Of a stretch of DNA of 64,000 bases, positions 4,491-42,732 are shown one piece after another. Every line of letters starts with the position of its first letter. Positions within the stretch are counted from its first letter, which is position 1. The translations under genes were made by a program, and so were the position numbers. Source of the stretch: a virus; IMG/VR virus record IMGVR_UViG_3300047121_000347, positions 1 to 64,000 of that record. The stretch is one strand, 5' to 3'. Under the pieces are notes generated by a model, which saw only the letters and a list, made by a program, of their open reading frames with translations, was not told the DNA's origin and did not search any database.

Positions 4491-4498
4491 GGAATGAC

Positions 4499-15208: not shown

Positions 15209-15209
15209 A

Positions 15210-21801: not shown

Positions 21802-21813
21802 GGAGCCCCATCG

Positions 21814-23154
21814 ATGAGTACGTTGGCTGAGTACAATAACAATCCGGGCAACTTACGCCCGCCGCAAGGGGTCAAATACGAAGGGCAAATAGGCGTTGAT
21901 GAGAACGGATTCGCTATCTTTGAAAATAAAGATTACGGACGCCGGGCACTCATCAACGACATCGAGATCAAGCTCAAGCGCGGTCTGAATAGTCCTGATA
22001 AATTTATCGATCGCTACGCCCCGCGTGGTAACGAGAACCCGCAGGAAGCCCAAGACAACTACAAGCTTTGGCTTGCGGGGTCGCTTGGTTTAGAAAGCAC
22101 TAATGATCCGTTCCCCAAAGACTCAGCCGAAAAGATAGCCGACGCCGTAGCGCAGTTTGAGAGCGGCACTTGGGGTAAACCCCCAGCGGCCGCACCCTCA
22201 ACGGAAGAAACCGGCAGCGGCCCGCCCACCGAGCAACAACGACGTGATAAACTCGTTGAAGAAGTTAAAGAGCTTCCCGGAAAAGTTGCTGAAGAATTTC
22301 CTACCGCCACTCGAGCTGCGTTTGACGTTGCGGGAATCAGCTTAGGCACGCAGGCGGGCAGGGAACTTGAAGCCGCCAGGCAACGTGCCGCCCAAGCCTC
22401 AGCTGACCTGCTACGGGGTTCGGCCCAGCCCGCCGCCCCAGCGACCGCCGCTCCTCCGCCGCCTATACCTACCGACCCCATGCACACCCGGCAGATGCAA
22501 GGCACTACGGAAGCAGGGACCACCGGCCGCGCCAGGCAGCAGACCTATAACGTCGGAACCTCTCAGCAGTCCGCCGCCGCTAAGCAGCAGGCCGAAGTCA
22601 TCGAACAGCTCAAACGCCAAGGTGTCGTGTCGGGCGACGCAAAGTCCCTGCTCGCAAAAGCACCCGGCCTGACCTCGACACCTTCAGGGGTGCTGTTGCC
22701 TTCAAGCCAGGTTTACGCTGATGTTCCGCCTACGCAGGGTACAACCTCCACGCCCCCGCCACCCCAGCAACGCCCTTCACCGTTGTCACGCGGTGCGCAG
22801 GCGCTCTCACGCGGAGTAAATATTGGGTACAGAGCGTTTCCCGGAGCAGCTGGTGCGCTAGCAGGCTTAGGAACCGCCGAGCTCGGGCAGCAGGCGTACA
22901 GCCGATTCTCAGAAGGTGACGTTCTGGGCGGCATTCTCGCGAGCGTTGGGGCCGGGAGCTCAGCGTTTTCGTTGTTTCCGTTTCCAGTAACCCGTGTGCC
23001 TTCGACGCTGTTAGCGGTTGCGTCGCCGTTGGCGCTGTTAGCTTACGATAAAATGAAAGAACGCGCAGTTTCTCAAGCCCAAGGGTATGGTGCGCTAGCC
23101 GCCGGGCGGCAACTCCCCGCACCGTCAATATACTCCGGCTTTACCAGTCCCTAA
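21814..23154 (+). CDS. virion protein with N-terminal NNPGN (lysozyme-like) domain
   Basis: YNNNPGNLR...GFAIF...G.RAL...FIDRYAP..NEN; last gene of the late arm. Confidence 0.6.
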   Translation: MSTLAEYNNNPGNLRPPQGVKYEGQIGVDENGFAIFENKDYGRRALINDIEIKLKRGLNSPDKFIDRYAPRGNENPQEAQDNYKLWLAGSLGLESTNDPFPKDSAEKIADAVAQFESGTWGKPPAAAPSTEETGSGPPTEQQRRDKLVEEVKELPGKVAEEFPTATRAAFDVAGISLGTQAGRELEAARQRAAQASADLLRGSAQPAAPATAAPPPPIPTDPMHTRQMQGTTEAGTTGRARQQTYNVGTSQQSAAAKQQAEVIEQLKRQGVVSGDAKSLLAKAPGLTSTPSGVLLPSSQVYADVPPTQGTTSTPPPPQQRPSPLSRGAQALSRGVNIGYRAFPGAAGALAGLGTAELGQQAYSRFSEGDVLGGILASVGAGSSAFSLFPFPVTRVPSTLLAVASPLALLAYDKMKERAVSQAQGYGALAAGRQLPAPSIYSGFTSP

Positions 23155-23197
23155 ACGCGGGGACTCCTCGTCGCCCTTACGTCCATGGGGGCGGCTT

Positions 23198-23234
23198 CCC
23201 CCGAACTGTTTCAGGTTCGGGGGTTTTTCTTTTT
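23198..23234 (+). terminator. rho-independent terminator ending the late arm
   Basis: CCCCCGAAC-TGTTTCAG-GTTCGGGGG followed by TTTTTCTTTTT at the convergent junction. Confidence 0.85.
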
Positions 23235-23709
23235 ATTTGAACTGCTTCTCATAGAGCCACCGCGCCATGAGGAGCGCCTCGGCTCGGTCGGCGTACTTCT
23301 TAAGGTTGAGCGGCGCTTCGGGGTAGAGCCTGATTGCAAACGCTCGGCAGAGCTCTTTGTCAGAGCTCAGCCCGAAGTGCTTCTTCCAAGTCACGGGGGT
23401 TGTGTGCGTGAGGTCTAGGCGAACGGCGGCAACCGCTGCCCGAGCCACACCGAACGAGTCCCCCAGGCTGAAAACCGAACTCACCCCCTGGCCGGGCATA
23501 GCGTTTACGCGCTCAAGTGCAACCGCCACGTGATCGTCTGGCGCGGCGTACCGCCTGAGCATAGCGAGAAGCCCCGCTGCGTCAACTTCGCTCTTAACGC
23601 TGCCCGAACCCTTAGCGACGGTGGGCATGTCCTCTACGGCGACGAATCGTCCGTCTCTGAGCACCCCCACCGCCCCGCTCAAGCCGGGATCAATACCGAT
23701 AGTGATCAT
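23233..23709 (-). CDS. RuvC-like Holliday junction resolvase
   Basis: IGIDPG.SGA, VALE, P.TWKK, DRAEALL; ATG 23709 overlaps the upstream stop. Confidence 0.85.
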   Translation of the reverse strand: MITIGIDPGLSGAVGVLRDGRFVAVEDMPTVAKGSGSVKSEVDAAGLLAMLRRYAAPDDHVAVALERVNAMPGQGVSSVFSLGDSFGVARAAVAAVRLDLTHTTPVTWKKHFGLSSDKELCRAFAIRLYPEAPLNLKKYADRAEALLMARWLYEKQFK

Positions 23710-24542
23710 AACGCCTCGTAGTGTTCGCACCCGGCCCGCTGCTCGTCGAGGGTGAGGGTGTGATTGTTAAGTTCGCACACCCAGCGGCCTTCCGGCCCTG
23801 GGGTGCACATACGGCACGTGCGGCAGTGGCGCAAAGGCTCAACCTCACGAGTGCATACGGCCCGCATGCTGCAGAACCTGCAACCGAAGCTCGTGCCGTC
23901 ATCGCTGATTCCGGCCGGGCGTAGTCGAGCCTCCGTGAGTTTGATGATTCGCGCTTTTAGCCGGCCCTGCTCGGCGGGGTCTTCCCGAATACGCTCGACG
24001 TAGAACTGCTCGTCGTCTTTGCAGACCGCCACATACAGCGCCCGCGTAAACCCGCCGAGCGCCATACTGATCTGAACCTGAGCGTAATGAGAAGGTTTTG
24101 AGCCGGCTACGCCTTTCTTCAACAGCGAACTGAAGCTGTTTTTGTTGTGCGTCTTCACCTCGAGCAGGTGCGGTTTATCGCTCTCAGGGACGTCCCTGAC
24201 CACACCGTCCACTTTCGTAATGAAGTGTCCGGTGGGGTCGCCGAACTCATACTGACGTCCGTCGGGTTGTTTGTCCCAGACCGCGAACCCCGCACGGCGC
24301 AAATCCGCTACGATTCGCGCCTCCTGAAGGTGCCCCGTCTCAAAAAGGCGATGAAGGCGTCCGTCAAACTGCTCACGGGCGAAACCTCGCCAGTTGAGCC
24401 ACACCTGACGAACGCACTCCTCGCCTATCCCCGACGAGCCAAGCCGCCCCAAGTACAGTTCAGAGTCTGCTTTCTCTTTTTGAATAGCGTCATAGATACG
24501 GCTAATGACTTGCTGCTCGGGTTTGGGCGGAATGGCTACCAC
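23706..24542 (-). CDS. Cas4-like PD-(D/E)XK exonuclease
   Basis: C.RQ.W, GH..E, DG...LLEVKT, Q.Q, CRFC.....C and CRTC cysteines. Confidence 0.8.
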   Translation of the reverse strand: MVAIPPKPEQQVISRIYDAIQKEKADSELYLGRLGSSGIGEECVRQVWLNWRGFAREQFDGRLHRLFETGHLQEARIVADLRRAGFAVWDKQPDGRQYEFGDPTGHFITKVDGVVRDVPESDKPHLLEVKTHNKNSFSSLLKKGVAGSKPSHYAQVQISMALGGFTRALYVAVCKDDEQFYVERIREDPAEQGRLKARIIKLTEARLRPAGISDDGTSFGCRFCSMRAVCTREVEPLRHCRTCRMCTPGPEGRWVCELNNHTLTLDEQRAGCEHYEAL

Positions 24543-24547
24543 GGCGC

Positions 24548-25051
24548 TCAGTCCCAGGGGTTCGCTGAAGCCGCCGGTGCCCGACTCGGCGCGGAGGCTT
24601 TCGGGGCGGCGGCCTTGGGCGCAGCGGTCTTGGGGGCTGCGGCGGGGGCTTCATCGCTGAACAAGAACGCTTTGATCTTGTTGCTCGCTTTGTAGCCGTT
24701 GCTAGCGGGCTCGATCGAAACCGCTGCCCGGAACGGTTTTTCTAGCAGCTTGTCGGTGTCGTCGGCTTCGGGCTTACCGCACGCCGTGGCCCAGGCGACG
24801 AGCTGCTGACGGCCGATGCGCTGCGCCTTCTCGCTCGGGTTGTTGATGTTGAAGTTCTGCCACAAGAGGCGGCCGGCGTGTTCACCCTTGACGACTTCAA
24901 ACTTCGCCTTGATGTACGAGCCGGTTCCGGCGCTGGTGGACTTCTCCTCGGCGTCGAGCGCTTTCAAAATGTACTCACCCTCGGGAATAGGGTCATACTC
25001 GGCGGGGGCGGAAACATCAACTTCTGAACTATCAAATCCAAACTTTGCCAT
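24548..25051 (-). CDS. DUF669-type single-stranded DNA-binding protein
   Basis: YDPIPEGEY, G.YIK..FEV..GEH.GR.LW, low-complexity tail ending PWD. Confidence 0.75.
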   Translation of the reverse strand: MAKFGFDSSEVDVSAPAEYDPIPEGEYILKALDAEEKSTSAGTGSYIKAKFEVVKGEHAGRLLWQNFNINNPSEKAQRIGRQQLVAWATACGKPEADDTDKLLEKPFRAAVSIEPASNGYKASNKIKAFLFSDEAPAAAPKTAAPKAAAPKASAPSRAPAASANPWD

Positions 25052-25069
25052 GATAAGGAGCTCCTTTAA

Positions 25070-25834
25070 TTAAGCGGCAATGGGGATGAGTTTTTCGAGA
25101 TTCTCAATCTTCATCTCAATCTCTTCGGGGCAACCGTAACGGTTCTTTGCGGCGTAGGCGGGGTTCTCAACAAAGTGCAGCAGTCGCTCGCCGGTCGTCA
25201 CGCCTCGGGTCTTTTGATTGTTGAACCCGGTGTCAGACTTGCGGATGATGACTTTGAACGCCGCGAACGCTATGACGTCTGCCCACTCCTGAAGCAGCGC
25301 GTTGCAGCGGTTGGGCAGTTTGGGCTGATAACGGTCATACGGCTCGGTGCGGGGGTCTTCGAATTTCACGACCGCCGCATGCGCAATCAACACCACGTTC
25401 ATCCCGCGCTTGAGCCGTAGCACGTCCAACCCCTGCAGGATCTCACGAAACTCCTCCGCTACAAGCATCTGCCCCTTGCCGTAGGCGAGGTCTTTAGCCT
25501 CATGCGAGGACTCCACATTGCTCACGATGAGCGGCTCGATCAGCCAGTCAACCGAATCAACAACCACAGTTTTGAACTGATGGTCTTCTTTGATGAGCGT
25601 CTTAATGCTGTCGACCACGTCGCTGATTTTCATCGCTCGGGGAAAGCTCGTCACGTCTAGCGAGTCGAGACCGTCCTCGGTGCTGATAAAAATCGGACTC
25701 GGGAACTGGCTAGCGAGTGTCGACTTACCTATCCCGTGACCGCCGTAGATGACAAAACGCGGGGGAACGGCTTGCTTACCCCGGCGCAGCGTATCCTGCC
25801 AGCTGCTAGGGGTGGGTTGCTTCTCTTTTGACAT
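25070..25834 (-). CDS. AAA_24 / Sak4-like ATPase (recombinase)
   Basis: YGGHGIGKST, TEDG, VVDSVDW, LIAH, AKNR; ATG 25834 after AGGAG. Confidence 0.85.
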   Translation of the reverse strand: MSKEKQPTPSSWQDTLRRGKQAVPPRFVIYGGHGIGKSTLASQFPSPIFISTEDGLDSLDVTSFPRAMKISDVVDSIKTLIKEDHQFKTVVVDSVDWLIEPLIVSNVESSHEAKDLAYGKGQMLVAEEFREILQGLDVLRLKRGMNVVLIAHAAVVKFEDPRTEPYDRYQPKLPNRCNALLQEWADVIAFAAFKVIIRKSDTGFNNQKTRGVTTGERLLHFVENPAYAAKNRYGCPEEIEMKIENLEKLIPIAA

Positions 25835-25862
25835 TTTGTTTCTCCTTTCTGAGTAGAGGCGG

Positions 25863-26234
25863 TTAGTCGTCCGCCGTTGGGAAATCGTCGTGGTCCTCGG
25901 CACCCTGCCCAAAGTCCCACTGATGTGTGATGTACTGGAACAGTTCGCGGTCCCAGCTCAAGAGGTTCAGCTTGTAGTCCTGCTCGGTGGCCAGCGCGGC
26001 ACATATGGCGCACAGCGACGGATCCCCAACCATCAGCAGGTAGTCCCCCGGCTCCCATTCGCTCAGCACTCGCCGGGCCTTGGCGATCATCATGCGAGTG
26101 TTGTACGGTTTTCGAGGCCGGCTGAACACTGCCCGCAGCTGACCGAAGCGCCGGGCGTCGCTGAGGTCTTTGCTGTTATCAACCTGCACGACGAATACGG
26201 TGCGGGTGTTACCGGGTTGTTGTGATGTTGTCAT
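25863..26234 (-). CDS. conserved phage hypothetical protein
   Basis: DLSDARRFG...DYLLMVGDP...LLSWDR; ATG 26234. Confidence 0.6.
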   Translation of the reverse strand: MTTSQQPGNTRTVFVVQVDNSKDLSDARRFGQLRAVFSRPRKPYNTRMMIAKARRVLSEWEPGDYLLMVGDPSLCAICAALATEQDYKLNLLSWDRELFQYITHQWDFGQGAEDHDDFPTADD

Positions 26235-28059
26235 TTTTGCGTTTCCTAGGTTGTTTAGGCGGCGGAGCGATGAGCGCGAGCTCTTCGGGAGTGAGATAGC
26301 TTTCGCAACCCACCGCCACTGCGATCTTGAGAGCTTCCTTTTGATACCACGTGTAGTCGAGATCAGCCGGGTGTTTAACAAAGTCCTCAACGGTCATGCA
26401 GGCTCGAGCACCGTCGGTCTTAGGCACTTTATTATTGTTCTTGAGGTAACGTATCGGCTCGAGCGCCGGGTCGTTTGATTGATACCACCGCACCACGCGA
26501 CCCAGGTACTGCCCCGCCTGAGCGCCGCCACCCGTGACGTTACGCGCTGAGATGAAATCGCGAAACGGCGCAGCGTATATTGTGTCGAGCAGCGGGGTGC
26601 CTCGGGCTAACCACTGCCCCACGGCATCGGCGCAGACCTGCGCGGTGGGGTTTTTCTTGAGCGACAACGGCGCGTAAATGCCTTTAACTTTTAGCGAGCG
26701 ATCAGGTTTGACGGCGATGTAATTGTTGACGTCCTTTAGCGCAAGAACGCGGTACGGCGTAAACTCGAACACAAACCGCGAAACCTCGCTAAAGCGACCA
26801 ATGACTTTCTGAATCGTAGTCTCAAGCGACGCGTGATACCGAATAGCGATTCCGTCGGTGTTGGCTGAGAGCGTTACAGCCCCCGCGAGTTCCAACCACT
26901 CGATGAGCATCAGCAACGTAAACTGACCCGTAAGGGTAACGGCCAACATCAGGTCCGGCGAGTACAACACCGAGTATCGGCTAGCGAGTTTGCCGAACGT
27001 GCCGTTTAGGGAAATCTTGAGCGTCTCGCCCGTGGTCTTATCACCAGAACGCTTTGCTTCTAGCCGCCGTTCGTAGATTTTACGATACTCGCGGACGAAG
27101 TCCTCACCCAGTCCGGCAGGCACGAAACCGCACTCTAGAATGATACTGGGGTAGAAGCTAGCGGCGTCAATATCACAGATGACGTCGGCCCCCGCAACGT
27201 GACAAACTTTTCGGTCATGAACACTGTGTATGCCCCCCACGCCGAGTTGATACTCCCCGTGGCCGAACGGGATAGTGGCGTGCCCTAGGAACTCAGGCAG
27301 CACAACGTGCCCGGTGCTGGGGTTCATCTCGAACGTGTGCGCCGCGACGCGCTCCAAAAGCTGTTGAAGCGCCAGGTCACGGAAGCTTAAGAATTTAGGC
27401 GGAACGTAGCGCACGCTCTTCGGCACTTCGTTTTCCCGGCGCTTCAGCCCCATGCTAGTGATGTACGCCTGCTCGGCCATCTGCGAATCGGACTTACTGC
27501 GCATATCAACGCCGTAACGCCGGCTCATCTCGACGCGCAGCAGGACTTCTTTCTCAAGGTGCCGTAACAGCTCCGCCGTTGTCTCGACGTCATTGTGGCA
27601 ATACTCAAGAAGGGTCGCCTCCTGCTCGGGACGTATCAGTTCAGCGTGATGAATTGGAAGGTCTTGAAGTCGCGGCATATGCATCCGCGCTCCGTAGGCC
27701 TTTAGGCTCACGAACGACGGCGCAACCTCAATCAGGTCAATCCAGTCGAATCGAACCTCGGGCAACATGAACTTACGCATCGCGGCCCAAGGCGCAAGGC
27801 GGTTGTTGATGACGTCGTCGGCGATGCGTTTGATTTCGGCCTCTGTGCGGGCGCTGCAAAACGCCGCCACAATGACGTTGTCGAACTCCCGCGAGTTGAA
27901 CCCTACAAAAGTCGCCCCCGAGCTCAAGAACGCCTTGAGCTTGGCGGGGCTGTCGGGCTGGTGCCGCCACAAGTCAAACCACTCGCCGGTGTCTGGGTTT
28001 TTGGCACAGAACAACGTGCGGTTGCGGTAAGTTTCGGTATCAAACACCCAGGTGCTCAT
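26209..28059 (-). CDS. family B DNA polymerase with 3'-5' exonuclease
   Basis: Exo motifs FDTETY, GFNSREFD, YCHND; polymerase motifs DAASFYPS, KISLNGTFG, NTDG. Confidence 0.9.
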   Translation of the reverse strand: MSTWVFDTETYRNRTLFCAKNPDTGEWFDLWRHQPDSPAKLKAFLSSGATFVGFNSREFDNVIVAAFCSARTEAEIKRIADDVINNRLAPWAAMRKFMLPEVRFDWIDLIEVAPSFVSLKAYGARMHMPRLQDLPIHHAELIRPEQEATLLEYCHNDVETTAELLRHLEKEVLLRVEMSRRYGVDMRSKSDSQMAEQAYITSMGLKRRENEVPKSVRYVPPKFLSFRDLALQQLLERVAAHTFEMNPSTGHVVLPEFLGHATIPFGHGEYQLGVGGIHSVHDRKVCHVAGADVICDIDAASFYPSIILECGFVPAGLGEDFVREYRKIYERRLEAKRSGDKTTGETLKISLNGTFGKLASRYSVLYSPDLMLAVTLTGQFTLLMLIEWLELAGAVTLSANTDGIAIRYHASLETTIQKVIGRFSEVSRFVFEFTPYRVLALKDVNNYIAVKPDRSLKVKGIYAPLSLKKNPTAQVCADAVGQWLARGTPLLDTIYAAPFRDFISARNVTGGGAQAGQYLGRVVRWYQSNDPALEPIRYLKNNNKVPKTDGARACMTVEDFVKHPADLDYTWYQKEALKIAVAVGCESYLTPEELALIAPPPKQPRKRKNDNITTTR

Positions 28060-28316
28060 CGATCTTGATTTGTGTAACCTGCGGTGGGTTCAGAGCCGTC
28101 AGTAAAGGCAACGCTCTCGAGTTCGATGAGCTTCTCAAGGAAGTGCTGAGCTTTCTGCAAGTCCTGCAAGCCGTTCTTTTCGTGATAACGCTCGACGTAC
28201 TTAGTGATGCAACCGATGAAGTAACCGCGACCGTAAAGCCGCCACTGGCGGTCCCAATGTTCTTCGCCGCCTTTTTTGTAGTGATTTCCGCCGACTTGTT
28301 TTTCGTTAGCCTTCAT
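28056..28316 (-). CDS. DUF3310 (SaV / T7 gp1.7-like) protein
   Basis: QVGGNHY...G.ITKYV.RY.EKNGLQDLQKAQHFL; ATG 28316. Confidence 0.8.
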   Translation of the reverse strand: MKANEKQVGGNHYKKGGEEHWDRQWRLYGRGYFIGCITKYVERYHEKNGLQDLQKAQHFLEKLIELESVAFTDGSEPTAGYTNQDR

Positions 28317-28800
28317 AACGCAACCCCTTGATGATGTTGAAAAGATCGAGCTCCCGGCCTGACAGAATAAGCTCATGCGCGTAAGCCACGTAACGGTCAT
28401 GCACCTCGAGCATGCGCCGGTTGCCGAGCTGCACCTCACGTAGGCAAAATACCGCCCCGTGGGCTATGTCGGCGAGTTTGAGCGTGCGTTGGTCGCAGGC
28501 GTTGAGTTCGGGGTACATGATGCCCGCGTCAAGCATCAACCGGCGCTCAAGCTCATCAACCTGATCGCCGATGCCGTATTCGCGTTTCGCGGGCGAGGGG
28601 ATATCGCCCGTGTACTGCTCGGCGAGGTCATGAAACAGCGCAGCCAAAATCAACTGCCGACTGGCGTCCGGGTTTAGCAGCAGCGCAAAACACGCTACAC
28701 CGTGCGAATGATGACCCACGGTTTCATTTTGAAGGGTTGTGAGGGTGTGAAAGCGTTTGACTTCGCTTCCGTTGATGATGAACTGAAGGGTTTTTCTCAT
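28306..28800 (-). CDS. HD-domain nucleotide phosphohydrolase (YfbR-like)
   Basis: KRFH, ETVGHHS, LFHDLAE..TGDIPSPAK, KLAD. Confidence 0.85.
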   Translation of the reverse strand: MRKTLQFIINGSEVKRFHTLTTLQNETVGHHSHGVACFALLLNPDASRQLILAALFHDLAEQYTGDIPSPAKREYGIGDQVDELERRLMLDAGIMYPELNACDQRTLKLADIAHGAVFCLREVQLGNRRMLEVHDRYVAYAHELILSGRELDLFNIIKGLRYEG

Positions 28801-28872: not shown

Positions 28873-29862
28873 TCAGCGCTGACGAGCTGCTTCTCGCCGC
28901 TCAACCCAGCTCATCGCAGCGTAGCGCCAGTCTTCCGCACCCACCGAGGCGGCCTCTTTTCGGCCCGTTTCGCCGGCCCGGCGAGCCGCGCTCACCATAG
29001 CCATAGGTCGCGCCACGTCGCTCAGGAACGTGTTGCGGTACGGGTTAGGAGCCAACGGGTCAACGCAGAACCACTCGCACTCGTACAAGAACAGCTGCGG
29101 GTCTGGATCGATCATCAGCGGTCGGGGTTTCACGAGTCCCCGCCAGTAACGGTCGTAATCGCTCGACTGGGGCGGGAGGGTGATGTACTGGTCGGCTTTG
29201 TAGAGATTGCGGTAAAGGTGAAGATTCGCGCTCACTTGCCGATAGACGCCTAACGGAACCCCCAGCGCCGTGGCCACAAACTCCTGCAACACGCTAAAGT
29301 GCACGACGTTTGCGCCGAGTGCGCCCCACCAGATATCGTTGCTACGGTTCAGGACCGTCATATCGAGCTGACCGGCTTGGGTTTCGAAGATCACCTGCGT
29401 GTTGCACGCCTTGTCTTTAGTGGCTTTTGAGAGGTCGGCGGGGTCCCAGATCTGAATCACGGCTTGACGGGTTTGCGGGTCGCGGCGCAAGAGGTCAATC
29501 ACCGCCAGCAGCTGATCGAACCCAAAGTGCCGCCGCCAGCGGTAACCGTACGCGGCGTTAAAGGTCACGCCGTCGTCGCTGTACTGCCCGATGCGGCTGT
29601 TGAAACGCTCGAGGAACGCCACGTCATTGCGCCCCGCGAGCATCCAGATCGACTCCAGCAGGTGAAAAATCGGATTAGCGTCTCGCCCCTCATGAAACAG
29701 CACCCGCTCCTGAGGCCGCAGATACGTGATGATGAACGTGTCTGTGAACGTAATCGCCGGACCATTGCGGGTGTTACGCTCATGGGTAGGATACGTTCGG
29801 AGCTTCCAGAATACCTCCGCGAAGGCTTCGTTGACGTTACTTGCGGTGATTGTGTAGGCCAT
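28873..29862 (-). CDS. thymidylate synthase homologue, probable dUMP hydroxymethylase
   Basis: TRNG, DANPIFH, AYG.RW, TRQAVIQIWD, KACN (catalytic Cys), NRSNDIWWGALGAN (Asn indicates dUMP specificity), NLHLY; adjacent to hmdU-modifying genes. Confidence 0.85.
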   Translation of the reverse strand: MAYTITASNVNEAFAEVFWKLRTYPTHERNTRNGPAITFTDTFIITYLRPQERVLFHEGRDANPIFHLLESIWMLAGRNDVAFLERFNSRIGQYSDDGVTFNAAYGYRWRRHFGFDQLLAVIDLLRRDPQTRQAVIQIWDPADLSKATKDKACNTQVIFETQAGQLDMTVLNRSNDIWWGALGANVVHFSVLQEFVATALGVPLGVYRQVSANLHLYRNLYKADQYITLPPQSSDYDRYWRGLVKPRPLMIDPDPQLFLYECEWFCVDPLAPNPYRNTFLSDVARPMAMVSAARRAGETGRKEAASVGAEDWRYAAMSWVERREAARQR

Positions 29863-29866
29863 GACT

Positions 29867-30784
29867 CTAGAACTCCTTCTCGGGCTTGTAGCGGGTCTTC
29901 GGCACACCGTCCCCAACCACTGTGCGGGCGTACTTGCTGTACTCGCACATTACGTTCTGAACGTCATGCAACGTAAGGTCCGTAATATCAAGCTGGGTTT
30001 CGATTGCGTTTTTGATCTCGATCAGTTTCTTGTTGAACTGCGTCTGGTTCCAAGGCATCGTTGACTTGCGCCCCGTGAGGTAATTGAGCCCTTTGGTGCT
30101 GCCGGGGCCGATGGGGGCGTAAGTGTAAAGGTCCTCGGCGACGCCCAGCTGTTTGTCGGTGTAGGTGAGGTCGGCGGCAACTTGCCCGGCCATAAACGTA
30201 TTGAGCCCAAACGACGTAGCAAGCAAGTACACGAAGTTCTCGATCCGGGGGCGCTCGTAATTGAGCTCTTCGATGAGTTTCGCGTTGAGCTCAATGGCGG
30301 GCTCAATGATGTGCCGCGCTAATGCAAGACTTTTTATTCCCGCAGGTTCTTTGTTGGTAGGGTAGACCATATATGCCCCACCGTAAATCTTATCAACCTT
30401 ACGGCGATACGCTTCGATAAGAGAACTAAACGCCTCGGGTGAAAACTTCTCAGGTGAAACGGGCAGAATTTTCTCATAAATCAATACGCGCAAAGTAGGC
30501 GGCCAGTTGATTAACCGCGCTATCAAAAGCGTAAACCACAAATCTGGCCGGTCAGCGTCAGGCTCTATGAGGTGTTTGATGATCCATTTAGACACTCGGT
30601 CATCACGGCGGCGGATGTTCGTAAACTTGTAATCGCGCAAGGTGGGGTCCTCGGTCCACGGGGGCGGCAGTTTGTTTTCACGTGAGATGCGGATTACTTC
30701 TCGTTCCCAAACAAAATACAGCAACCCTTCGATTGATGCAATTTTATTAGCGGTAGGCGGCTTGTAGGGGCAATCTTCGATCAT
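29867..30784 (-). CDS. 5-hmdU DNA kinase helical subunit (aGPT-Pplase1 family)
   Basis: ERE.IR..R...PPWTEDP.L..YKFTNIRR.DDRVS, R.INWP.TL, FMAGQV.ADL.Y, GPGS.KGL, QN..CEYSKY. Confidence 0.85.
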   Translation of the reverse strand: MIEDCPYKPPTANKIASIEGLLYFVWEREVIRISRENKLPPPWTEDPTLRDYKFTNIRRRDDRVSKWIIKHLIEPDADRPDLWFTLLIARLINWPPTLRVLIYEKILPVSPEKFSPEAFSSLIEAYRRKVDKIYGGAYMVYPTNKEPAGIKSLALARHIIEPAIELNAKLIEELNYERPRIENFVYLLATSFGLNTFMAGQVAADLTYTDKQLGVAEDLYTYAPIGPGSTKGLNYLTGRKSTMPWNQTQFNKKLIEIKNAIETQLDITDLTLHDVQNVMCEYSKYARTVVGDGVPKTRYKPEKEF

Positions 30785-31347
30785 GCTTCGAACTCCTCGA
30801 AAATAGTCATCAGCTGAGGGTGAGGGTCAGCGTGGTCGATGAGTCGCACGTTGTAACCCGCATTGCGTAAATTTTTGTAACAGTTCACCACCGAATGGAA
30901 CTTTTCGACAAGGTTTTTAGGGTCGAACGGTTTTTCATTACCGGCAGTCAAGCGACGCTGTTTGACGCGCTCGATACAAAGCTCGAGCGGTGTGTTCATG
31001 AACGCATACACCGCGCAGCCTGTGGGCTGCACGGCTTGGGTGACTTGTCCACCTAGTCCGCTGTTAGAGACTAACGCCCCTTCGTAAAGTACATGCCCTA
31101 ACGGGTGAGCTTTCAACACGCGTTGAGCTATCTCAGCTTGAGTTTTGATCGCGTCGGTGCCACCGCAAACATTGTCATATTTGCCGATGACGTAAATCGG
31201 GGTGCGTAAAGCAGGAACACCTACTCGATAACCGGCTATCTTATCTTTGCTCATTAACGCCTCAGCACTGTAGTCGAGAAACTGCCTAACGGCTGTGGTT
31301 TTACCTGAACCGAACGTACCTGATATGCGCAAGATGACATTTCGCAT
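30781..31347 (-). CDS. P-loop kinase, probable 5-hmdU DNA kinase catalytic subunit
   Basis: ISGTFGSGKTT, GKY...CGGTD, EG, TPLELCIERV..RR; ATGA-coupled to the helical subunit. Confidence 0.8.
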   Translation of the reverse strand: MRNVILRISGTFGSGKTTAVRQFLDYSAEALMSKDKIAGYRVGVPALRTPIYVIGKYDNVCGGTDAIKTQAEIAQRVLKAHPLGHVLYEGALVSNSGLGGQVTQAVQPTGCAVYAFMNTPLELCIERVKQRRLTAGNEKPFDPKNLVEKFHSVVNCYKNLRNAGYNVRLIDHADPHPQLMTIFEEFEA

Positions 31348-31368
31348 GTTAGTTTTCCAGTTGTTTCG

Positions 31369-32373
31369 TTATAAAAAATGCTCGGCTCGATAGGGCCGAC
31401 CTGTAGCGGGAAATATACGCGCTTTTTCTTTCAAAGACAACCGCTGCGTCTCACATTCAGCCCTCAGCCATTCGGGGAGTTCCAAGCTGCGTATGTCTTT
31501 GAACACCGCCGTAACTTCGCTCAGCCCCCGAGCGTCGGCCCACTCGATACGCTCCCAAGCCATGTCGGCATAAACGCCGGGATACCTTCGCCCAAAGAAA
31601 TGATTTTTAAATGTGCACAAGTTGCTCTCGAGTGTAAAGTTATTTACATTCGGAATGTCGTGGTTCTGCTCAGAAAAATCAAAGAGAAGGTTGTCGGCCT
31701 CCCGACTCAGCCACGTGCACATCCCTTCAAAATTGAAATAACTGCCGTCAAAGCCGTTGCCCGCCCGTTTGTCCCAAACTAATTGGTCGTTGCCGGTTAA
31801 GAACAACATACCGTTACGGTGGGAGCGGCTACCCGACTTGTCGTTAAAAAGCAAGTCGTCGCAGTCAGCTCCGAACCCGTTGAGGTAAACGTACTCGAGG
31901 TAAGAAAACGATGACAGTCGCCCAAACGAGTGATACCGCCCTCGCACTAACGCCCATAGTTCAGCATATGTTTTTTCGCTGAGCATGGTAACTTGCGAGC
32001 CGCCGTGTTCAGCAACAAGATTGGCATAAGTGCGGATAGCTTCGGGGGTGTGTGTTTTCTGATATCGCCGGTCTGTATCGAACTGTAACCGGTCCCACTC
32101 TGAATTAAACCAGTCGCTGAACTGCGTCAGCTTTGCATCAGGGGGTGGGACTGACGGGAGACGTTTCGCAAGACTTATTGAAGTTATAGGGTTTTGCGTA
32201 AGACCATTTAAAAACGCAAACCAAAGACGCTGCTCGGCATCCCAATCGTAACGTCGCGCCAGCTCCGGCATGTACAGGTATACCAACCCCGGCATCACAC
32301 CGTAAGTCAAGTTCAGACCGTAGAGTTTGTCGAAATATTCGCGGCGGTTTTCCCGCAGCCGGTAATCGTTCAC
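31369..32373 (-). CDS. amino acid:DNA transferase (aGPT-Pplase2 / ADDT family)
   Basis: DYRL.ENRRE.F, LWFAFLNG.TQNP.TS, DTDRRY.K, FGRLSSFSYLE, SHRNG, TLESNLC.FK, RYPGVY.DM; GTG start at 32373. Confidence 0.85.
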   Translation of the reverse strand: MNDYRLRENRREYFDKLYGLNLTYGVMPGLVYLYMPELARRYDWDAEQRLWFAFLNGLTQNPITSISLAKRLPSVPPPDAKLTQFSDWFNSEWDRLQFDTDRRYQKTHTPEAIRTYANLVAEHGGSQVTMLSEKTYAELWALVRGRYHSFGRLSSFSYLEYVYLNGFGADCDDLLFNDKSGSRSHRNGMLFLTGNDQLVWDKRAGNGFDGSYFNFEGMCTWLSREADNLLFDFSEQNHDIPNVNNFTLESNLCTFKNHFFGRRYPGVYADMAWERIEWADARGLSEVTAVFKDIRSLELPEWLRAECETQRLSLKEKARIFPATGRPYRAEHFL

Positions 32374-32525
32374 AGCAGCCCCCACCCAAAGTTAAACAAC
32401 GCCGAAATGACGCGGCAAAACGCTCCGGCCAGAACTGTACCCGCCGCGATAAGCGCCACCCAACTCAACAACCAGAGGGCGAAAAACCCTCCGCTGTCAA
32501 AAACGCTTCGACTACGACGGTTCAT
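32370..32525 (-). CDS. small membrane protein (51 aa, not in ORF track)
   Basis: MNRRSRSVFDSGGFFALWLLSWVALIAAGTVLAGAFCRVISALFNFGWGLL*; 4-bp overlaps at both ends. Confidence 0.55.
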   Translation of the reverse strand: MNRRSRSVFDSGGFFALWLLSWVALIAAGTVLAGAFCRVISALFNFGWGLL

Positions 32526-38722: not shown

Positions 38723-38950
38723 TCAATGGATTGCGCCGGGACCGTCGAACATACGCTGCCGCACCGCAGCGGCTATCGCCAGCGTGCCGTAGCCATCAGT
38801 ACCCATGCGTTCAATCAGCCGGGCGCACTGCTCGTTCTCGGCCGCCGCAGCGGCAAACATCAACATGTTCACGTTAGCGCGGAGTGCTGCTAAGGTGCGT
38901 TTGATGTCCTCAAGATCCTGCAAGGCGCGTTCGTAGTCGGCGGTGTTCAT
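38723..38950 (-). CDS. hypothetical protein
   Basis: 75 aa; AAENEQCARL...IAAAVR. Confidence 0.55.
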   Translation of the reverse strand: MNTADYERALQDLEDIKRTLAALRANVNMLMFAAAAAENEQCARLIERMGTDGYGTLAIAAAVRQRMFDGPGAIH

Positions 38951-38953
38951 CGC

Positions 38954-39163
38954 TCATCCTTTCGTTGGGTAAAAAGTTACGAAGTCGCTGGCGACGTGAA
39001 TCGTGGCCGTGCAGCCGAGGTTGCGGCATACCTGCTCGGCCCAGTCTTGAATCGCTCTCAAGGCTGGCACTTCGGGCGGGTACGCTTGCTCAAGCAACGC
39101 AAGACTAATGGTTGCGTCTTTGCCACACAGTACTTGGCTGGCGATCCAGGCTTCGTAGTTCAT
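38954..39163 (-). CDS. hypothetical protein
   Basis: 69 aa in a tightly packed array. Confidence 0.5.
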   Translation of the reverse strand: MNYEAWIASQVLCGKDATISLALLEQAYPPEVPALRAIQDWAEQVCRNLGCTATIHVASDFVTFYPTKG

Positions 39164-39165
39164 GC

Positions 39166-39399
39166 CTACCCCCTTGCTCGAATCAACTCAAACAAATGCT
39201 TCAACAAAGATTCATCAGAATCGGACAGATCGTCGCGCTCAGCATAATCAAACAGAACCTTTGCACACGCCTCACGCTCGGCAGCGGCAACAAGAGCGGC
39301 GAAGCGTTCAAGCTCATGCACCATCAGTAAATGGGGTGTTTCAATGGCTTGCTTAATGTTAGCCTCCCGCGCCATGCGGATTATTTCATCTTGGGTCAT
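39166..39399 (-). CDS. hypothetical protein (IIRMAREA...ERFAALVAAAERE family)
   Basis: ATG 39399; shares blocks with 39787-40056. Confidence 0.55.
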   Translation of the reverse strand: MTQDEIIRMAREANIKQAIETPHLLMVHELERFAALVAAAEREACAKVLFDYAERDDLSDSDESLLKHLFELIRARG

Positions 39400-39400
39400 T

Positions 39401-39538
39401 TCAATACCCCCATCGAATACGGAAGCACACCAGATACAGGTGCAGTACAAATTCGCTGCCACTGCTCATGAACCCCACGGCGAAGCAGGGCCACTTGCGC
39501 GGCAAGAATTCAGTAGTTAGATGTAAACTTTTTCGCAT
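39401..39538 (-). CDS. small hypothetical protein (45 aa, not in ORF track)
   Basis: MRKSLHLTTEFLPRKWPCFAVGF...RWGY*; fills the gap exactly, GAGG SD. Confidence 0.4.
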   Translation of the reverse strand: MRKSLHLTTEFLPRKWPCFAVGFMSSGSEFVLHLYLVCFRIRWGY

Positions 39539-39541
39539 ACA

Positions 39542-39784
39542 TTACCTCTGTGGGTTAAAGCCAAGCCGACGCATACCCAACTCAATGAGCATTGCGGCGT
39601 CCTCAAGGCGGTTCTGACTACTGCTCATGCCGGTCTGCCATTCGCCGCCTACGCGTTTGCCGACAATAGCCACCGTGACGACCTCCCCAGATTTGGCGTC
39701 TTCCAGCCACTGCTCCAACATTTCTATGGCATCAGAGTTGTCAGGGGTTGTAGCCTTGATGAACGGTTTGATGTTGCCTGTCAT
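39542..39784 (-). CDS. hypothetical protein
   Basis: ATG 39784 after AGGAG; LEQWLEDAKSGEV. Confidence 0.55.
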   Translation of the reverse strand: MTGNIKPFIKATTPDNSDAIEMLEQWLEDAKSGEVVTVAIVGKRVGGEWQTGMSSSQNRLEDAAMLIELGMRRLGFNPQR

Positions 39785-39786
39785 GT

Positions 39787-40056
39787 TTAACTCCTTGCTC
39801 GTATAGCGCCTGCGCTGTAGTCGGGACGAACCCACTTGCTTTTTGCCACGGCGATGCAGTCGTTCGAATCCAGCATGTAATCGCCTTCGGTGACGCAGTA
39901 ATCGTCTTCCTCTTTGATCGCCTTGCAGATGCGCTCACGCTCGGCGGCAGCAACAAGGGCGGCGAAGCGTTCAAATAATTCGAGGTTTGCGCCCGTGTAT
40001 GAGACTGGGTTAAAACCAGCCTCTCGCGCCATGCGGATGATGTCTTCTCTGTTCAT
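39787..40056 (-). CDS. hypothetical protein (IIRMAREA...ERFAALVAAAERE family)
   Basis: ATG 40056; ends AIRARS. Confidence 0.55.
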   Translation of the reverse strand: MNREDIIRMAREAGFNPVSYTGANLELFERFAALVAAAERERICKAIKEEDDYCVTEGDYMLDSNDCIAVAKSKWVRPDYSAGAIRARS

Positions 40057-40232
40057 AGGTTTACATTCCAATAATGTAGTTTGGTCATTTCAAGTACACC
40101 GATCACGGTTGCAACGGTCATGTGGTCGTACTTAGGAGAGTTAACCAAAGCTCTTATGTCGTTCATCAAATCAATCCCCATAGCTTTTTGATCGGACGAT
40201 GGGATGACTGTTAACTTTTTTTCTCTATCCAT
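40053..40232 (-). CDS. hypothetical protein (59 aa, not in ORF track)
   Basis: MDREKKLTVIPSS...TVIGVLEMTKLHYWNVNL*; overlaps both neighbours. Confidence 0.5.
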   Translation of the reverse strand: MDREKKLTVIPSSDQKAMGIDLMNDIRALVNSPKYDHMTVATVIGVLEMTKLHYWNVNL

Positions 40233-40683
40233 GATTCTTCTCCTTTAGCTTGGCTTCGATGAGGTCACGTAGTTTCAACAGAGAATCGTCACAAACCTCT
40301 CCGTCTGCTGACCACCAGTGCATCGCCTCTGGGTCATCGTCGTTGTCGTAATCCTCATGAATATCAAATCCTGCTTTCCAAGCCGCGACCATGACCTCCT
40401 CATCTGTCAGCCCAACCCATTCAGCAGCCTTTGGTGGTGCGGTGTACAGGGGTGATCGACCTTCGCCAGCAGATTTGTAAATCGTGCCGCATCCGACCGA
40501 ATCAAAATGCTCACGCACCTCATCAATCTTTACCCAGCCCTCTACTGCGTTCCAGTATTCAAACGGCTCTGTCTCCAGTGCTTGGCGTAGAGCTTTGACG
40601 GCTTCGTCAAACCTTTGAACGCTCATCCTGCTTTGATATAACTCCAGCGCCCCAAGCGCCAACTGCATAGCTTCTCTGCTCAT
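40225..40683 (-). CDS. hypothetical protein
   Basis: MSREAMQLAL.AL...PLYTAPP..EWVGLTDEE...IEAKLKEKN, a pattern common in betaproteobacterial phage accessory genes. Confidence 0.6.
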   Translation of the reverse strand: MSREAMQLALGALELYQSRMSVQRFDEAVKALRQALETEPFEYWNAVEGWVKIDEVREHFDSVGCGTIYKSAGEGRSPLYTAPPKAAEWVGLTDEEVMVAAWKAGFDIHEDYDNDDDPEAMHWWSADGEVCDDSLLKLRDLIEAKLKEKNHG

Positions 40684-41811: not shown

Positions 41812-42732
41812 TTATCGTAAATCTCTTTTATCGTTCCAATCGCGTTGGCTATCGACGGGTATATCTTTCACGGCATCGTGTTGAGCTTGGATGATAGCGT
41901 CAGAACCAACGTTGATGAATATAGCACCGGGTGCTGCATACTGTTCGAAACTCTTCCAACACTTAGCATCATAGTTTACGGTGGAGTCGAACGGCGGGCG
42001 CAGCTCTTCGGCTACCGGTTTCAGGAACGGTAACGTAGATCCAATGATCTTTGCGTGGCCGATTTCGCCGGGTTGCATGTTTCGCGCAACCGCAATACCT
42101 TTGCATTTAGTGTTCGGCCAAGCGATCTGAAACGCTCGGATAGCGGTGCCCGTCGAAACGCTCATCCAAACTTCGGTCGGTTCGCCACCAATTTGCTCGC
42201 TGATCCGAGCAGCCAGCTTCACGAGTCCCGCAGTCACCAACGGCGCTTTCGACAACCCCGGTGGTAAATATTCAGCACCATGCTTTTCAGCCCAAGCCTT
42301 TGCCCAACCGTTCAGGTTCGGCATGCGGACGATCTTAGCGAACCGTAGCTCAGCACCATGGTAAAGCAGAGCGCGTTGATGCACTGAGAGCTCTTTGGCT
42401 GCAGGGCAAAAGAAAACACACTTTTTACCATACAGTTTGCCGAGCGTCGCAATCGCGTTGGGGGCCATGCCGGCCCGAGGTGCTACGTAAACGAGTTTGT
42501 CGCTCTGGGTTTGTGCGATGAGCTGCTCGGCTCCGTAACCCTTGAGGCTGATCTGGCTCAAGTCACCTCGAAAAACCCATCGATTGCCATGCGAGATAAC
42601 GACTGGCGGAGTTAATTTAGATACGAATTTACTGCTCATCGACAAATAATGTTCGCGTGCTCGGTGCACGTCCATTCCGGTCGGGATGTCGCGGTTAGTG
42701 CGGTCTTCGGTTACGGTGAACATTAGACTCAA
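41812..42732 (-). CDS. fold-type II PLP-dependent enzyme, putative DNA-modification decarboxylase
   Basis: VFRGDL...LK (candidate Schiff-base Lys), LVYVAPRAG.A, SVSTGT phosphate loop, PPFDS..NYDAK.W, FINVG; start 42732 or 42723. Confidence 0.75.
   Translation of the reverse strand: MSLMFTVTEDRTNRDIPTGMDVHRAREHYLSMSSKFVSKLTPPVVISHGNRWVFRGDLSQISLKGYGAEQLIAQTQSDKLVYVAPRAGMAPNAIATLGKLYGKKCVFFCPAAKELSVHQRALLYHGAELRFAKIVRMPNLNGWAKAWAEKHGAEYLPPGLSKAPLVTAGLVKLAARISEQIGGEPTEVWMSVSTGTAIRAFQIAWPNTKCKGIAVARNMQPGEIGHAKIIGSTLPFLKPVAEELRPPFDSTVNYDAKCWKSFEQYAAPGAIFINVGSDAIIQAQHDAVKDIPVDSQRDWNDKRDLR

What the first reader, a model, noticed from the sequence alone, without database searches (positions are those of the whole stretch)
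28873..32373. Thymidine hypermodification pathway in a compact podovirus-like PolB phage
Seen: four contiguous genes encode a TS homologue with the dUMP-specifying Asn, an aGPT-Pplase1 helical protein, a P-loop kinase and an aGPT-Pplase2 protein. Established from phages M6, ViI, PaMx11 and PhiW-14: hmdU replaces T, is phosphorylated on DNA, and is then substituted with an amino acid or amine. Here kinase and helical domains are separate but ATGA-coupled genes. No radical SAM isomerase (M6 route) or flavin lyase/acetyltransferase (PaMx11 route) is visible, but a PLP enzyme is. Inference: a ViI-like route (O-seryl-T decarboxylated to 5-NeOmdU) or a new amino-acid-derived base, in a virion lineage different from the characterised myo- and siphoviruses.
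Basis: partly seen in the sequence, partly recalled or inferred. Interest (0 to 1): 0.78.

Follow-up and report, generated by a model that had tools for sequence, protein, structure and literature searches.

The report
Phage thymidine hypermodification gene cassette
An uncultured lake-water phage carries the known enzyme kit that replaces thymine in phage DNA by an amino-acid-derived base; this copy is unusual only because it lost the usual finishing enzyme and holds a different, distantly related one elsewhere in the genome.

Summary
Window 28873-32373 (minus strand) encodes, in order, an amino-acid:DNA transferase (ADDT/aGPT-Pplase2), a 5-hmdU DNA kinase, the kinase-associated helical protein (aGPT-Pplase1) and a thymidylate-synthase homologue with the uracil-specifying Asn. 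An HD nucleotidase and PolB follow.

The order matches the Pseudomonas phage M6 and PaMx11 cassettes, but the tailoring slot between transferase and kinase is empty.

The transferase belongs to the Salmonella phage ViI gp247 (serine) clade, not the M6/PaMx11 glycine clade.

In 58 of 67 informative related IMG/VR loci, a ViI gp226-type PLP decarboxylase sits at or near the transferase. The same holds in a second, ~80% identical genome copy later in this 101.8-kb record. The window's copy and its closest relatives have lost it.

They carry instead a fold-type-II PLP enzyme of the M6 gp52 PHROG family 9.4 kb away. One complete close relative has no PLP enzyme at all.

Verdict: a real thymidine-hypermodification cassette and a new member of a known kind. 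The product is probably an O-seryl-type adduct, possibly decarboxylated. The same kind of operon was already found by this scan on other DNA (e1-5919414, e1-3267432).

The parts
31369..32373 (-). Amino-acid:DNA transferase (ADDT, aGPT-Pplase2), 334 aa from GTG 32373. The longest ORF runs to 32385.
   Evidence: PF18724 9.4e-17 and phrog_3271 2.7e-62. ViI gp247 is in the same PHROG. 27% identity to gp247. The AlphaFold2 model's best PDB match is PaMx11 gp46, 8Z2M/8Z2N, TM 0.53/0.60. Invariant Cys257 aligns with gp46 Cys247.
30781..31347 (-). 5-hmdU DNA kinase (P-loop), 188 aa.
   Evidence: PF18748 28.7 bits (cut-off 27) and phrog_800 5.4e-20. 26% identity to the assayed M6 gp54, E 7e-13. Invariant Walker A.
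29867..30784 (-). HMUDK helical-domain protein (aGPT-Pplase1), 305 aa. Its start overlaps the kinase stop (ATGA).
   Evidence: PF18723 1.4e-42. 32% identity to M6 gp55, E 9e-44. ATGA overlap read. Invariant C280-E-x-x-K-Y motif.
28873..29862 (-). Thymidylate-synthase homologue, predicted dUMP hydroxymethylase, 329 aa.
   Evidence: PF00303 and phrog_5131. 44% identity over the full length to M6 gp58. Asn at the TS Asn177 position, and a closer match to CMP hydroxymethylase MilA (1e-23) than to any TS (1e-13). The best cultured-phage relatives listed are M6/PaMx11-like, SP82G and ViI-like phages, groups known or predicted to carry hmU-derived DNA (my knowledge and PMC5889632), plus Bordetella CN1 and Ralstonia phiRSL1.
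28306..28800 (-). HD-domain 5'-deoxynucleotidase-like protein, in the same position as M6 gp59 and PaMx11 gp52.
   Evidence: PF12917 1.8e-10 and PF13023. Synteny.
28056..28439 (-). DUF3310 protein. The real start is probably near 28310.
   Evidence: PF11753 4.5e-8, and PHROGs annotated as nucleotide kinase-associated.
26209..28059 (-). Family B DNA polymerase at the end of the cassette.
   Evidence: phrog_1252 1.4e-157. 37-39% identity to PolB of many cultured phages.
32370..32525 (-). 51-aa ORF whose stop overlaps the ADDT start (GTGA). In most relatives the gp226-type PLP gene lies between this ORF's homologue and ADDT.
   Evidence: a clean indel of about 970 bp, with no PLP remnant in this copy.
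41812..42732 (-). Orphan fold-type-II PLP enzyme, 306 aa, 9.4 kb upstream of the cassette. It is a candidate substitute decarboxylase.
   Evidence: PF00291 36.2 bits, phrog_7093 2.1e-40. M6 gp52 scores 2.2e-159 in the same PHROG. pLDDT 93.8; TM 0.66-0.70 to D-cysteine desulfhydrase and to the ACC deaminase homologue 1j0a. Invariant K64 and S193-T-G-T.

Best explanation
The four genes, together with the HD nucleotidase and PolB downstream, form a thymidine-hypermodification cassette of the kind worked out for phages M6, PaMx11, ViI and PhiW-14.

Inferred steps:
1. The TS homologue makes 5-hydroxymethyl-dUMP from dUMP.
2. After phosphorylation, the phage PolB puts 5-hmdU into DNA in place of part or all of T. 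The HD nucleotidase probably helps by draining dTMP or dTTP.
3. On the DNA, the P-loop kinase phosphorylates the 5-hydroxymethyl group. Its gene is translationally coupled to that of the helical aGPT-Pplase1 protein.
4. The ADDT then displaces the phosphate with an amino acid, using the conserved Cys257 region.

The ADDT belongs to the ViI gp247 clade. In most of its lineage it sits next to a gp226-type PLP decarboxylase, which needs a free alpha-amine. The attached group is therefore most likely linked through its side chain, with serine giving O-seryl-thymidine as the leading candidate.

The window's copy has lost the in-cluster decarboxylase. The adduct is then either left as it is or decarboxylated by the orphan M6-gp52-family PLP enzyme at 41812-42732, giving a 5-aminoethoxymethyl-dU-like base.

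My odds: a working T-hypermodification pathway, about 0.85-0.9. Serine as the amino acid, about 0.5. Decarboxylation in this copy, about 0.4.
For: Shown by tools:
- Family assignments of all four proteins.
- Pairwise similarity to M6 gp58, gp55 and gp54.
- The same gene order as M6 gp51-gp59 and PaMx11 gp46-gp55, with the tailoring slot reduced to 21 nt.
- ADDT shares phrog_3271 with ViI gp247, whereas the glycine transferases M6 gp51 and PaMx11 gp46 are in phrog_6364.
- The tree places {PhiW-14 gp109, M6 gp51, PaMx11 gp46} against {ViI gp247, phiA8-29, BobbyK gp3, this lineage}, support 90/89.
- The ADDT model is most similar to the PaMx11 gp46 crystal structure, and the Cys aligns.
- dN/dS is 0.03-0.08.
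- Of 67 informative related IMG/VR loci, 58 have a gp226-type PLP gene: about 38 abut or overlap the ADDT start, 17 have one extra gene between, and 3 have it elsewhere in the locus.
- The second copy in this record has that PLP gene, 34% identical to ViI gp226 (E 3e-66), with Lys57 aligned to gp226 K92.
- The orphan PLP enzyme is a confident fold-type-II model, in the same PHROG as M6 gp52.
- It was found only in genomes that lack the gp226 type.

From the literature: the enzyme functions of M6 gp51/52/54 and ViI gp226/gp247 (PMC8989533).
Against: - No chemistry. The base itself was not observed.
- ADDT is only 27% identical to gp247, so serine is an extrapolation from a single characterised clade member.
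- The kinase passes its Pfam cut-off only narrowly.
- The orphan PLP enzyme is 9.4 kb away, in a variable early-gene region.
- A complete, closely related genome (G003: 57.5 kb, ADDT 91% identical) has neither PLP type.
- In 54-56 of 80 loci the orphan PLP family sits in a different module with no ADDT or kinase, so its substrate may be something else.
- The apparent mutual exclusion of the two PLP types rests on one small clade and is probably a single evolutionary event.
Confidence: 0.82

Rival explanations
1. The pathway in this copy ends at the amino-acid adduct, for example O-seryl-thymidine. The in-cluster decarboxylase was lost and not replaced. The orphan PLP enzyme is a stray accessory gene from another module, with an unrelated or no role in this pathway.
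For: - G003, a complete close relative, has no PLP enzyme of either type.
- G025 keeps only a 27-aa remnant of the gp226-type gene.
- The orphan PLP family normally sits beside a short TS-like gene, a 387-aa protein and a MazG-like gene, not beside ADDT or kinase.
- PhiW-14 and SP10 show that untailored adducts can be final bases (PMC5889632).
Against: - The orphan PLP gene is intact. It is kept at 96-100% identity in seven other IMG/VR contigs: two also carry the cassette (L007/L024 and G001), and the five fragments carry the neighbouring early genes.
- It shares a PHROG with a proven adduct decarboxylase, M6 gp52.
- It occurs only where the gp226 type is absent.
Confidence: 0.4
2. The transferase attaches a nucleophile other than serine (another amino acid or an amine), so the phage makes a base not yet described.
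For: - Only 27% identity to gp247.
- The lineage forms its own branch, together with a mycobacteriophage protein.
- Relatives show varied extra genes between PLP and ADDT: unknown 248-255-aa proteins and DHH/DHHA1-like proteins.
- Lee et al. predict untapped chemical diversity (PMC8989533).
Against: - Conserved adjacency to a gp226-type decarboxylase (34% identical to the O-SerT decarboxylase) argues for a ViI-like substrate.
- No extra tailoring gene lies in this copy.
Confidence: 0.3
3. The TS homologue is an ordinary thymidylate synthase and the neighbouring genes are decaying or do something else, so the DNA carries normal T.
For: Databases annotate the family as thymidylate synthase, and Asn fits dUMP in either case.
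Against: - Strong purifying selection on all genes.
- The order is conserved in 79 loci.
- The closest cultured homologues include M6/PaMx11-like, SP82G and ViI-like phages, which carry or are predicted to carry hmU-derived DNA.
- It matches a hydroxymethylase (MilA) better than any TS, and it lacks the first Trp of the TS 'IWDEW' stretch in the alignment.
Confidence: 0.03

Closest known systems
Pseudomonas phage M6 cluster gp51-gp59 (5-NedU) and PaMx11 gp46-gp55 (5-AcNmdU), Mesyanzhinovviridae
   Same: - Same gene order: transferase, [tailoring slot], kinase, helical protein, TS homologue, HD hydrolase, then the DNA polymerase region.
- TS 44%, helical protein 32% and kinase 26% identical to M6.
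- The orphan PLP enzyme shares phrog_7093 with M6 gp52.
   Different: - The tailoring slot is empty. There is no PLP/radical SAM pair and no FAD lyase/acetyltransferase pair.
- The transferase is of another clade (phrog_3271, not phrog_6364) and shows no significant pairwise similarity to gp51.
- The polymerase is PolB.
- The virion module is podovirus-like rather than that of these phages, which the literature describes as siphoviruses.
Salmonella phage ViI (Vi01) 5-NeOmdU pathway: gp247 serine:DNA transferase, gp226 PLP decarboxylase, gp67/gp243 kinases, gp160
   Same: - The transferase is in the same PHROG and tree clade as gp247.
- The rest of the lineage, and the second copy in this record, carry a gp226-type PLP enzyme (34% identity, E 3e-66) next to the transferase.
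   Different: - The window's copy lacks the gp226-type enzyme.
- The genes are clustered M6-style rather than scattered over a 157-kb genome.
- There is only one kinase.
HTVC023P-type pelagiphage podoviruses with TS plus aG/PT-PPlase1 (PMC9599517)
   Same: - Related capsid and portal (about 31-40% identity).
- Genomes of 55-60 kb.
- Hypermodification genes near the DNA polymerase.
   Different: - Those phages use PolA.
- Only TS and aG/PT-PPlase1 were reported there.
- Here the full set with kinase and ADDT is present, in a freshwater lineage with about 55% GC.
Delftia phage PhiW-14 (putrescinyl-T) and Bacillus phage SP10 (glutamyl-T)
   Same: - Kinase plus aGPT-Pplase proteins, with no downstream tailoring enzyme in the cluster.
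- The adduct itself may be the final base.
   Different: - PhiW-14 gp109 falls in the other transferase clade.
- SP10 fuses the kinase and the helical domain.

Membership tests
Thymidine hypermodification pathway via 5-hmdU / 5-PmdU (Lee et al. 2018, 2021) | TS-family dUMP hydroxymethylase with a uracil-specifying Asn | tested here: met
   Asn and catalytic Cys are aligned. 44% identity to M6 gp58. Hydroxymethylase rather than TS activity is inferred, not assayed.
Thymidine hypermodification pathway via 5-hmdU / 5-PmdU (Lee et al. 2018, 2021) | 5-hmdU DNA kinase (P-loop, PF18748) | tested here: met
   28.7 bits against a cut-off of 27. E 7e-13 to the assayed M6 gp54. Walker A invariant.
Thymidine hypermodification pathway via 5-hmdU / 5-PmdU (Lee et al. 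2018, 2021) | aGPT-Pplase2 / ADDT transferase | tested here: met
   PF18724 9.4e-17. The fold is nearest to PaMx11 gp46. The Cys247 equivalent is conserved.
Thymidine hypermodification pathway via 5-hmdU / 5-PmdU (Lee et al. 2018, 2021) | aGPT-Pplase1 / HMUDK helical protein next to the kinase | tested here: met
   PF18723 1.4e-42. ATGA overlap with the kinase gene.
Thymidine hypermodification pathway via 5-hmdU / 5-PmdU (Lee et al. 2018, 2021) | Modified thymidine actually present in virion DNA | not testable with these tools
   Needs LC-MS of virion DNA or raw nanopore signal.
ViI-type route (O-SerT to 5-NeOmdU) | gp247-clade transferase | tested here: met
   phrog_3271 for both proteins. 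Tree clade with support 90/89. Serine specificity itself was not tested.
ViI-type route (O-SerT to 5-NeOmdU) | gp226-type PLP decarboxylase (phrog_3650) | tested here: not met
   Absent from the window's genome copy and from the A-type relative G001. Present in the second copy of the record at G000 89758-90726.
M6-type route (N-alpha-GlyT to 5-NedU) | gp51-clade glycine transferase and radical SAM isomerase | tested here: not met
   ADDT does not match phrog_6364, and pairwise E is 0.025. No homologue of the M6 gp53 radical SAM enzyme in the window or in related loci.
M6-type route (N-alpha-GlyT to 5-NedU) | gp52-family PLP decarboxylase | tested here: inconclusive
   Same PHROG (2.1e-40 against 2.2e-159 for gp52 itself). 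hhalign gives only E 2.5e-4 at 43% probability. The fold is type II. The activity is unknown.

The most novel reading that the evidence does not exclude
The orphan PLP enzyme belongs to an undescribed pyrimidine-modification module: MazG-like, a short 219-aa TS-like protein, the PLP enzyme, a 387-aa protein and PolB, with no recognisable P-loop kinase. This module is common in 44-55-kb uncultured phages. A protein language model and a predicted-structure search place the 387-aa protein near aGPT-Pplase-like clusters. In the window's phage this PLP enzyme would have been captured to replace the lost gp226-type decarboxylase. Two roughly 80% identical phages from lake-water metagenomes would then finish the same adduct with non-orthologous enzymes, or make different bases.
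Probability: 0.2. Interest if true: 0.6.

Novelty: new member of a known kind. Interest (0 to 1): 0.36.

Why it matters
Hypermodified thymidines shield phage DNA from restriction enzymes and other DNA-targeting defences, and their enzymes are useful tools for DNA chemistry.

This cassette adds no new enzyme class. It does show three things:
- A ViI-type transferase can sit in an M6-type gene arrangement, in a widespread freshwater podovirus-like lineage that uses PolB. There are at least 79 IMG/VR loci, and the exact sequence occurs in at least 22 lake-water metagenome runs.
- That lineage contains natural variants with a gp226-type PLP enzyme, with a gp52-family PLP enzyme, or with none.
- Those variants are a ready-made comparison for asking whether decarboxylation of the adduct matters for protection, and whether unrelated PLP enzymes can substitute for each other.

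Tried and rejected
- **Kinase with helical protein as a complex** (complex prediction): no verdict (score 0.00), so it says nothing either way.
- **Sequence bridge from the 387-aa neighbour of the orphan-PLP family to aGPT-Pplase proteins.** hhalign against my ADDT and helical-protein alignments was not significant. No member hit PF18723 or PF18724. A profile search of 1.84 billion representatives gave 174 relatives, none matching my ADDT, helical, kinase or PLP HMMs apart from one 99-aa fragment (P0345) that matched the C-terminal end of my PLP profile. There were no PDB hits for the family profile or for two fused forms. Only the ESM Atlas lead remains.
- **Direct sequence hits of ADDT and the orphan PLP enzyme to solved structures:** none.
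- **ViI gp226 against the orphan-PLP profile:** no similarity.
- **Remnant of the gp226-type gene in the window's copy:** none.
- **Promoter and terminator scan of 26-35 kb:** no more sites than in shuffled sequence.
- **Laying Logan contigs on G000 54-72 kb to test whether the record is chimeric:** only short contigs, and no cover at 62.4-63.6 kb, so inconclusive.
- **RNA evidence:** no RNA holder was listed among the sequencing runs.
- **Nucleotide search of 25 kb of the window against cultured phages:** no match.
- **Rejected: one phage carrying two operons.** Relatives bounded by terminal repeats are 55-60 kb and each gave one locus.


Full report
**Observation**

The window's minus strand between 28873 and 32373 holds four tightly packed genes.
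- Pfam and PHROGs name them as ADDT/aGPT-Pplase2 (31369-32373), 5-hmdU DNA kinase (30781-31347), HMUDK helical domain/aGPT-Pplase1 (29867-30784) and a thymidylate-synthase homologue (28873-29862).
These are ATG 29862 behind GGAG for the TS homologue and GTG 32373 for ADDT, which fits the lineage consensus MxDYRL.
- The kinase stop and the helical-protein start share ATGA. The two genes abut or overlap by a few bases in the 20 relatives examined.
- The TS homologue has the catalytic Cys, and Asn at the position of Asn177 of thymidylate synthase. The cytosine enzyme MilA has Asp there. Its best solved relative is that hydroxymethylase (1e-23), ahead of any TS (1e-13).
- Against a second copy of the cassette further along the same record, dN/dS is 0.03-0.08. 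The genes are real and constrained.

**Anatomy and synteny**

Downstream follow an HD 5'-deoxynucleotidase-like gene, a DUF3310 gene and a family B polymerase.
- The order transferase, kinase, helical protein, TS homologue, HD hydrolase, polymerase region is that of M6 gp51-gp59 and PaMx11 gp46-gp55.
- Between transferase and kinase, M6 has a PLP enzyme plus a radical SAM enzyme, and PaMx11 has a flavin lyase plus an acetyltransferase. The window has 21 nt there.
- Identities to M6 are 44% (TS), 32% (helical protein) and 26% (kinase).
- The transferase shows no significant pairwise similarity to M6 gp51. It falls in phrog_3271 with ViI gp247, the serine:DNA transferase. The glycine transferases M6 gp51 and PaMx11 gp46 are in phrog_6364.
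- A maximum-likelihood tree separates {PhiW-14 gp109, M6 gp51, PaMx11 gp46} from {ViI gp247, phiA8-29, mycobacteriophage BobbyK gp3, this lineage} with support 90/89.
- An AlphaFold2 model of ADDT (pLDDT 86.6) is most similar to the PaMx11 gp46 crystal structures 8Z2M/8Z2N.
- The invariant Cys257 aligns with gp46 Cys247. The structure paper says that residue turns toward the flipped-out nucleoside.

**The PLP question**

The window's PLP enzyme (41812-42732) lies 9.4 kb from the cassette, beyond the primase and helicase genes.
- It is a confident fold-type-II model (pLDDT 93.8). TM is 0.66-0.70 to D-cysteine desulfhydrase and to the ACC deaminase homologue 1j0a, the template that Lee et al. 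cite for ViI gp226.
- It has an invariant Lys64 and an STGT loop.
- It matches phrog_7093 (2.1e-40), the family of the assayed decarboxylase M6 gp52. Direct profile comparison with gp52 is weak (E 2.5e-4), and there is no similarity to ViI gp226.

- There, a 322-aa gene lies directly upstream of ADDT (G000 89758-90726).
- It is 34% identical to ViI gp226 (E 3e-66; phrog_3650, 3.4e-79), and its Lys57 aligns with gp226 K92.
- My first gene call had missed it because of a 76-nt overlap.

**Lineage survey**

The ADDT clade is abundant. More than 120 protein clusters are at least 65% identical. There are 79 IMG/VR loci, many on 53-60-kb contigs, and six of the records searched whole are bounded by terminal repeats.

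Of the 67 loci with enough upstream sequence:
- about 38 have the gp226-type PLP gene abutting or overlapping the ADDT start;
- 17 have it with one extra gene between;
- 3 have it elsewhere in the locus;
- 9 have none.

Five of those nine are the window's closest relatives (ADDT at least 85% identical). In this group the PLP gene is cleanly absent, with no remnant. Another relative keeps a 27-aa remnant. Loss is therefore the simpler reading.

The orphan gp52-family PLP enzyme occurs in the window's copy, in G001 and in L007/L024, alongside the cassette. It also occurs on five fragments that carry the neighbouring early genes. It is absent from all 25 other genomes searched, with positive controls. 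G003, a 57.5-kb, 100%-complete genome with ADDT 91% identical, has neither PLP type.

**Where the orphan PLP family normally lives**

I fetched 80 IMG/VR loci with relatives of this enzyme.
- 56 have a short (219-aa) TS-like gene close by.
- 54 have a 387-aa protein of no known family beside it.
- 36 have a MazG-like pyrophosphohydrolase, and 20 have PolB.
- None except the window's own clade has a recognisable ADDT, kinase or helical protein.

The ESM Atlas places the 387-aa protein next to clusters in which 11-31% of members carry PF18723 (score 0.97; structural TM 0.74). Its C-terminus has a D-V-x-C-D-x-I-R-W motif reminiscent of the helical protein's H-D-V-Q-N-x-M-C-E-Y-S-K-Y. No profile method confirmed the link.

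So the enzyme family is associated with pyrimidine-modification neighbourhoods. That gives some weight to a role in DNA modification here, but its natural substrate may differ.

**Mechanism**

The best reading is the known pathway:
- dUMP is converted to 5-hmdUMP and incorporated by PolB.
- The base is phosphorylated on the DNA and then substituted by an amino acid.
- The gp247 clade membership and the lineage-wide pairing with a gp226-type decarboxylase point to an adduct with a free alpha-amine. O-seryl-thymidine is the leading candidate.
- In the window's copy the adduct is either final, or is decarboxylated by the orphan PLP enzyme.
- Functions of the reference enzymes come from PMC8989533 and PMC5889632. 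Everything about this phage's chemistry is inference.

**Context and novelty**

- Capsid and portal are closest to an uncultured Manatee Spring phage (MCP 87.5%) and to Caulobacter Riverwalk-cluster phages (MCP 75%). More distant are Roseobacter CRP-901/902 and the HTVC023P-type pelagiphages, which their paper describes as podoviruses. A SU10-type adaptor is present.
- The two nearest GenBank relatives by capsid and portal lack ADDT and the helical protein.
- Hypermodification genes in HTVC023P-type podoviruses were reported in 2022 (PMC9599517).
- Lee et al. mined IMG/VR for kinase-bearing contigs and described combinatorial gene sets.
- This scan has already filed two similar operons on other DNA as new carriers of the ViI-type pathway (e1-5919414, e1-3267432).

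The finding is therefore a new member of a known kind. The PLP loss and possible replacement is a modest twist.

**The record itself**

The window is the first 64 kb of a 101.8-kb IMG/VR record that holds about 1.77 genome lengths of two variants, 72-82% identical at the DNA level.
- The independent contig G001 runs straight across the 43909/43998 boundary, so the gene order is that of a circularly permuted genome of about 57 kb.
- Complete relatives are 55-60 kb and each gave one locus.
- The record is most likely a concatenated assembly of two co-occurring strains. I could not prove that from Logan contigs.

Noticed in passing
whole record G000 (window = 1-64000); second copy at G000 63993-101460: The 101.8-kb record holds about 1.77 genome lengths of two variants that are 72-82% identical at the DNA level. 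Complete relatives bounded by terminal repeats are 55-60 kb, each with one cassette locus. The record is probably a concatenated assembly of two co-occurring lake-water strains, not one phage with two operons.
   Followed up: partly
window 38739-41795 versus G000 97462-100607: The early-gene block is inverted between the two copies. Patches are 87-96% identical, higher than the 72-82% identity of the long collinear blocks.
   Followed up: no
L011/G002 (IMGVR_UViG_3300023174_000009) 20461-26156, and about 54 further loci among L111-L184: A conserved module of a MazG-like gene, a short TS-like gene (219 aa, phrog_160), a fold-II PLP enzyme, a 387-aa unknown protein and PolB, with no recognisable kinase or ADDT. 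The 387-aa family has 174 representatives at 50% identity, and some are fused forms of 640-790 aa. This may be an undescribed base-modification system.
   Followed up: partly
window 2362-7557 and 15105-19139: The tail module of this copy carries a 2OG-Fe(II) oxygenase, a GT2-methyltransferase fusion, a second GT2, Gly_rich_2-domain proteins and a 1344-aa collagen-like fibre protein. Together they look like a virion-fibre hydroxylation and glycosylation set. They are absent from the second copy.
   Followed up: partly
L087 and L092 (IMG/VR relatives of the ADDT): A variant cassette has a Tet_JBP dioxygenase, a 257-aa unknown protein, ADDT and a Ploopntkinase3-type kinase. None of the downstream cassette genes (TS homologue, helical protein, HD) was detected in the roughly 1.3-1.5 kb of sequence that follows ADDT. 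In these phages 5-hmU may be made on the DNA by oxidation of T.
   Followed up: partly
L059, L065, L072, L081 (IMG/VR relatives): An extra gene of 248-312 aa lies between the gp226-type PLP gene and ADDT. It is DHH/DHHA1 phosphoesterase-like in two loci and of no known family in the others. It could be an additional tailoring or editing step.
   Followed up: partly
L109, Mycobacterium phage BobbyK 1-3462: The closest cultured-phage ADDT (36% identity) sits at the left genome end, between a ParB-like nuclease-domain gene, a 324-aa unknown gene and a gene annotated as adenylate kinase. This recalls the ParB-dependent T-dioxygenase systems named in the title of a 2026 paper (PMC13229309), which I did not read.
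   Followed up: no
window 45460-48396: A 978-aa protein with a PcfJ-like domain sits between the large terminase and the portal gene.
   Followed up: no
window 28873-32373: The exact cassette sequence is held, at half or more of its sampled words, by 22 lake-water metagenome runs filed from 2020 to 2025. The phage appears recurrent in fresh water. Twelve of those runs may be source samples.
   Followed up: partly
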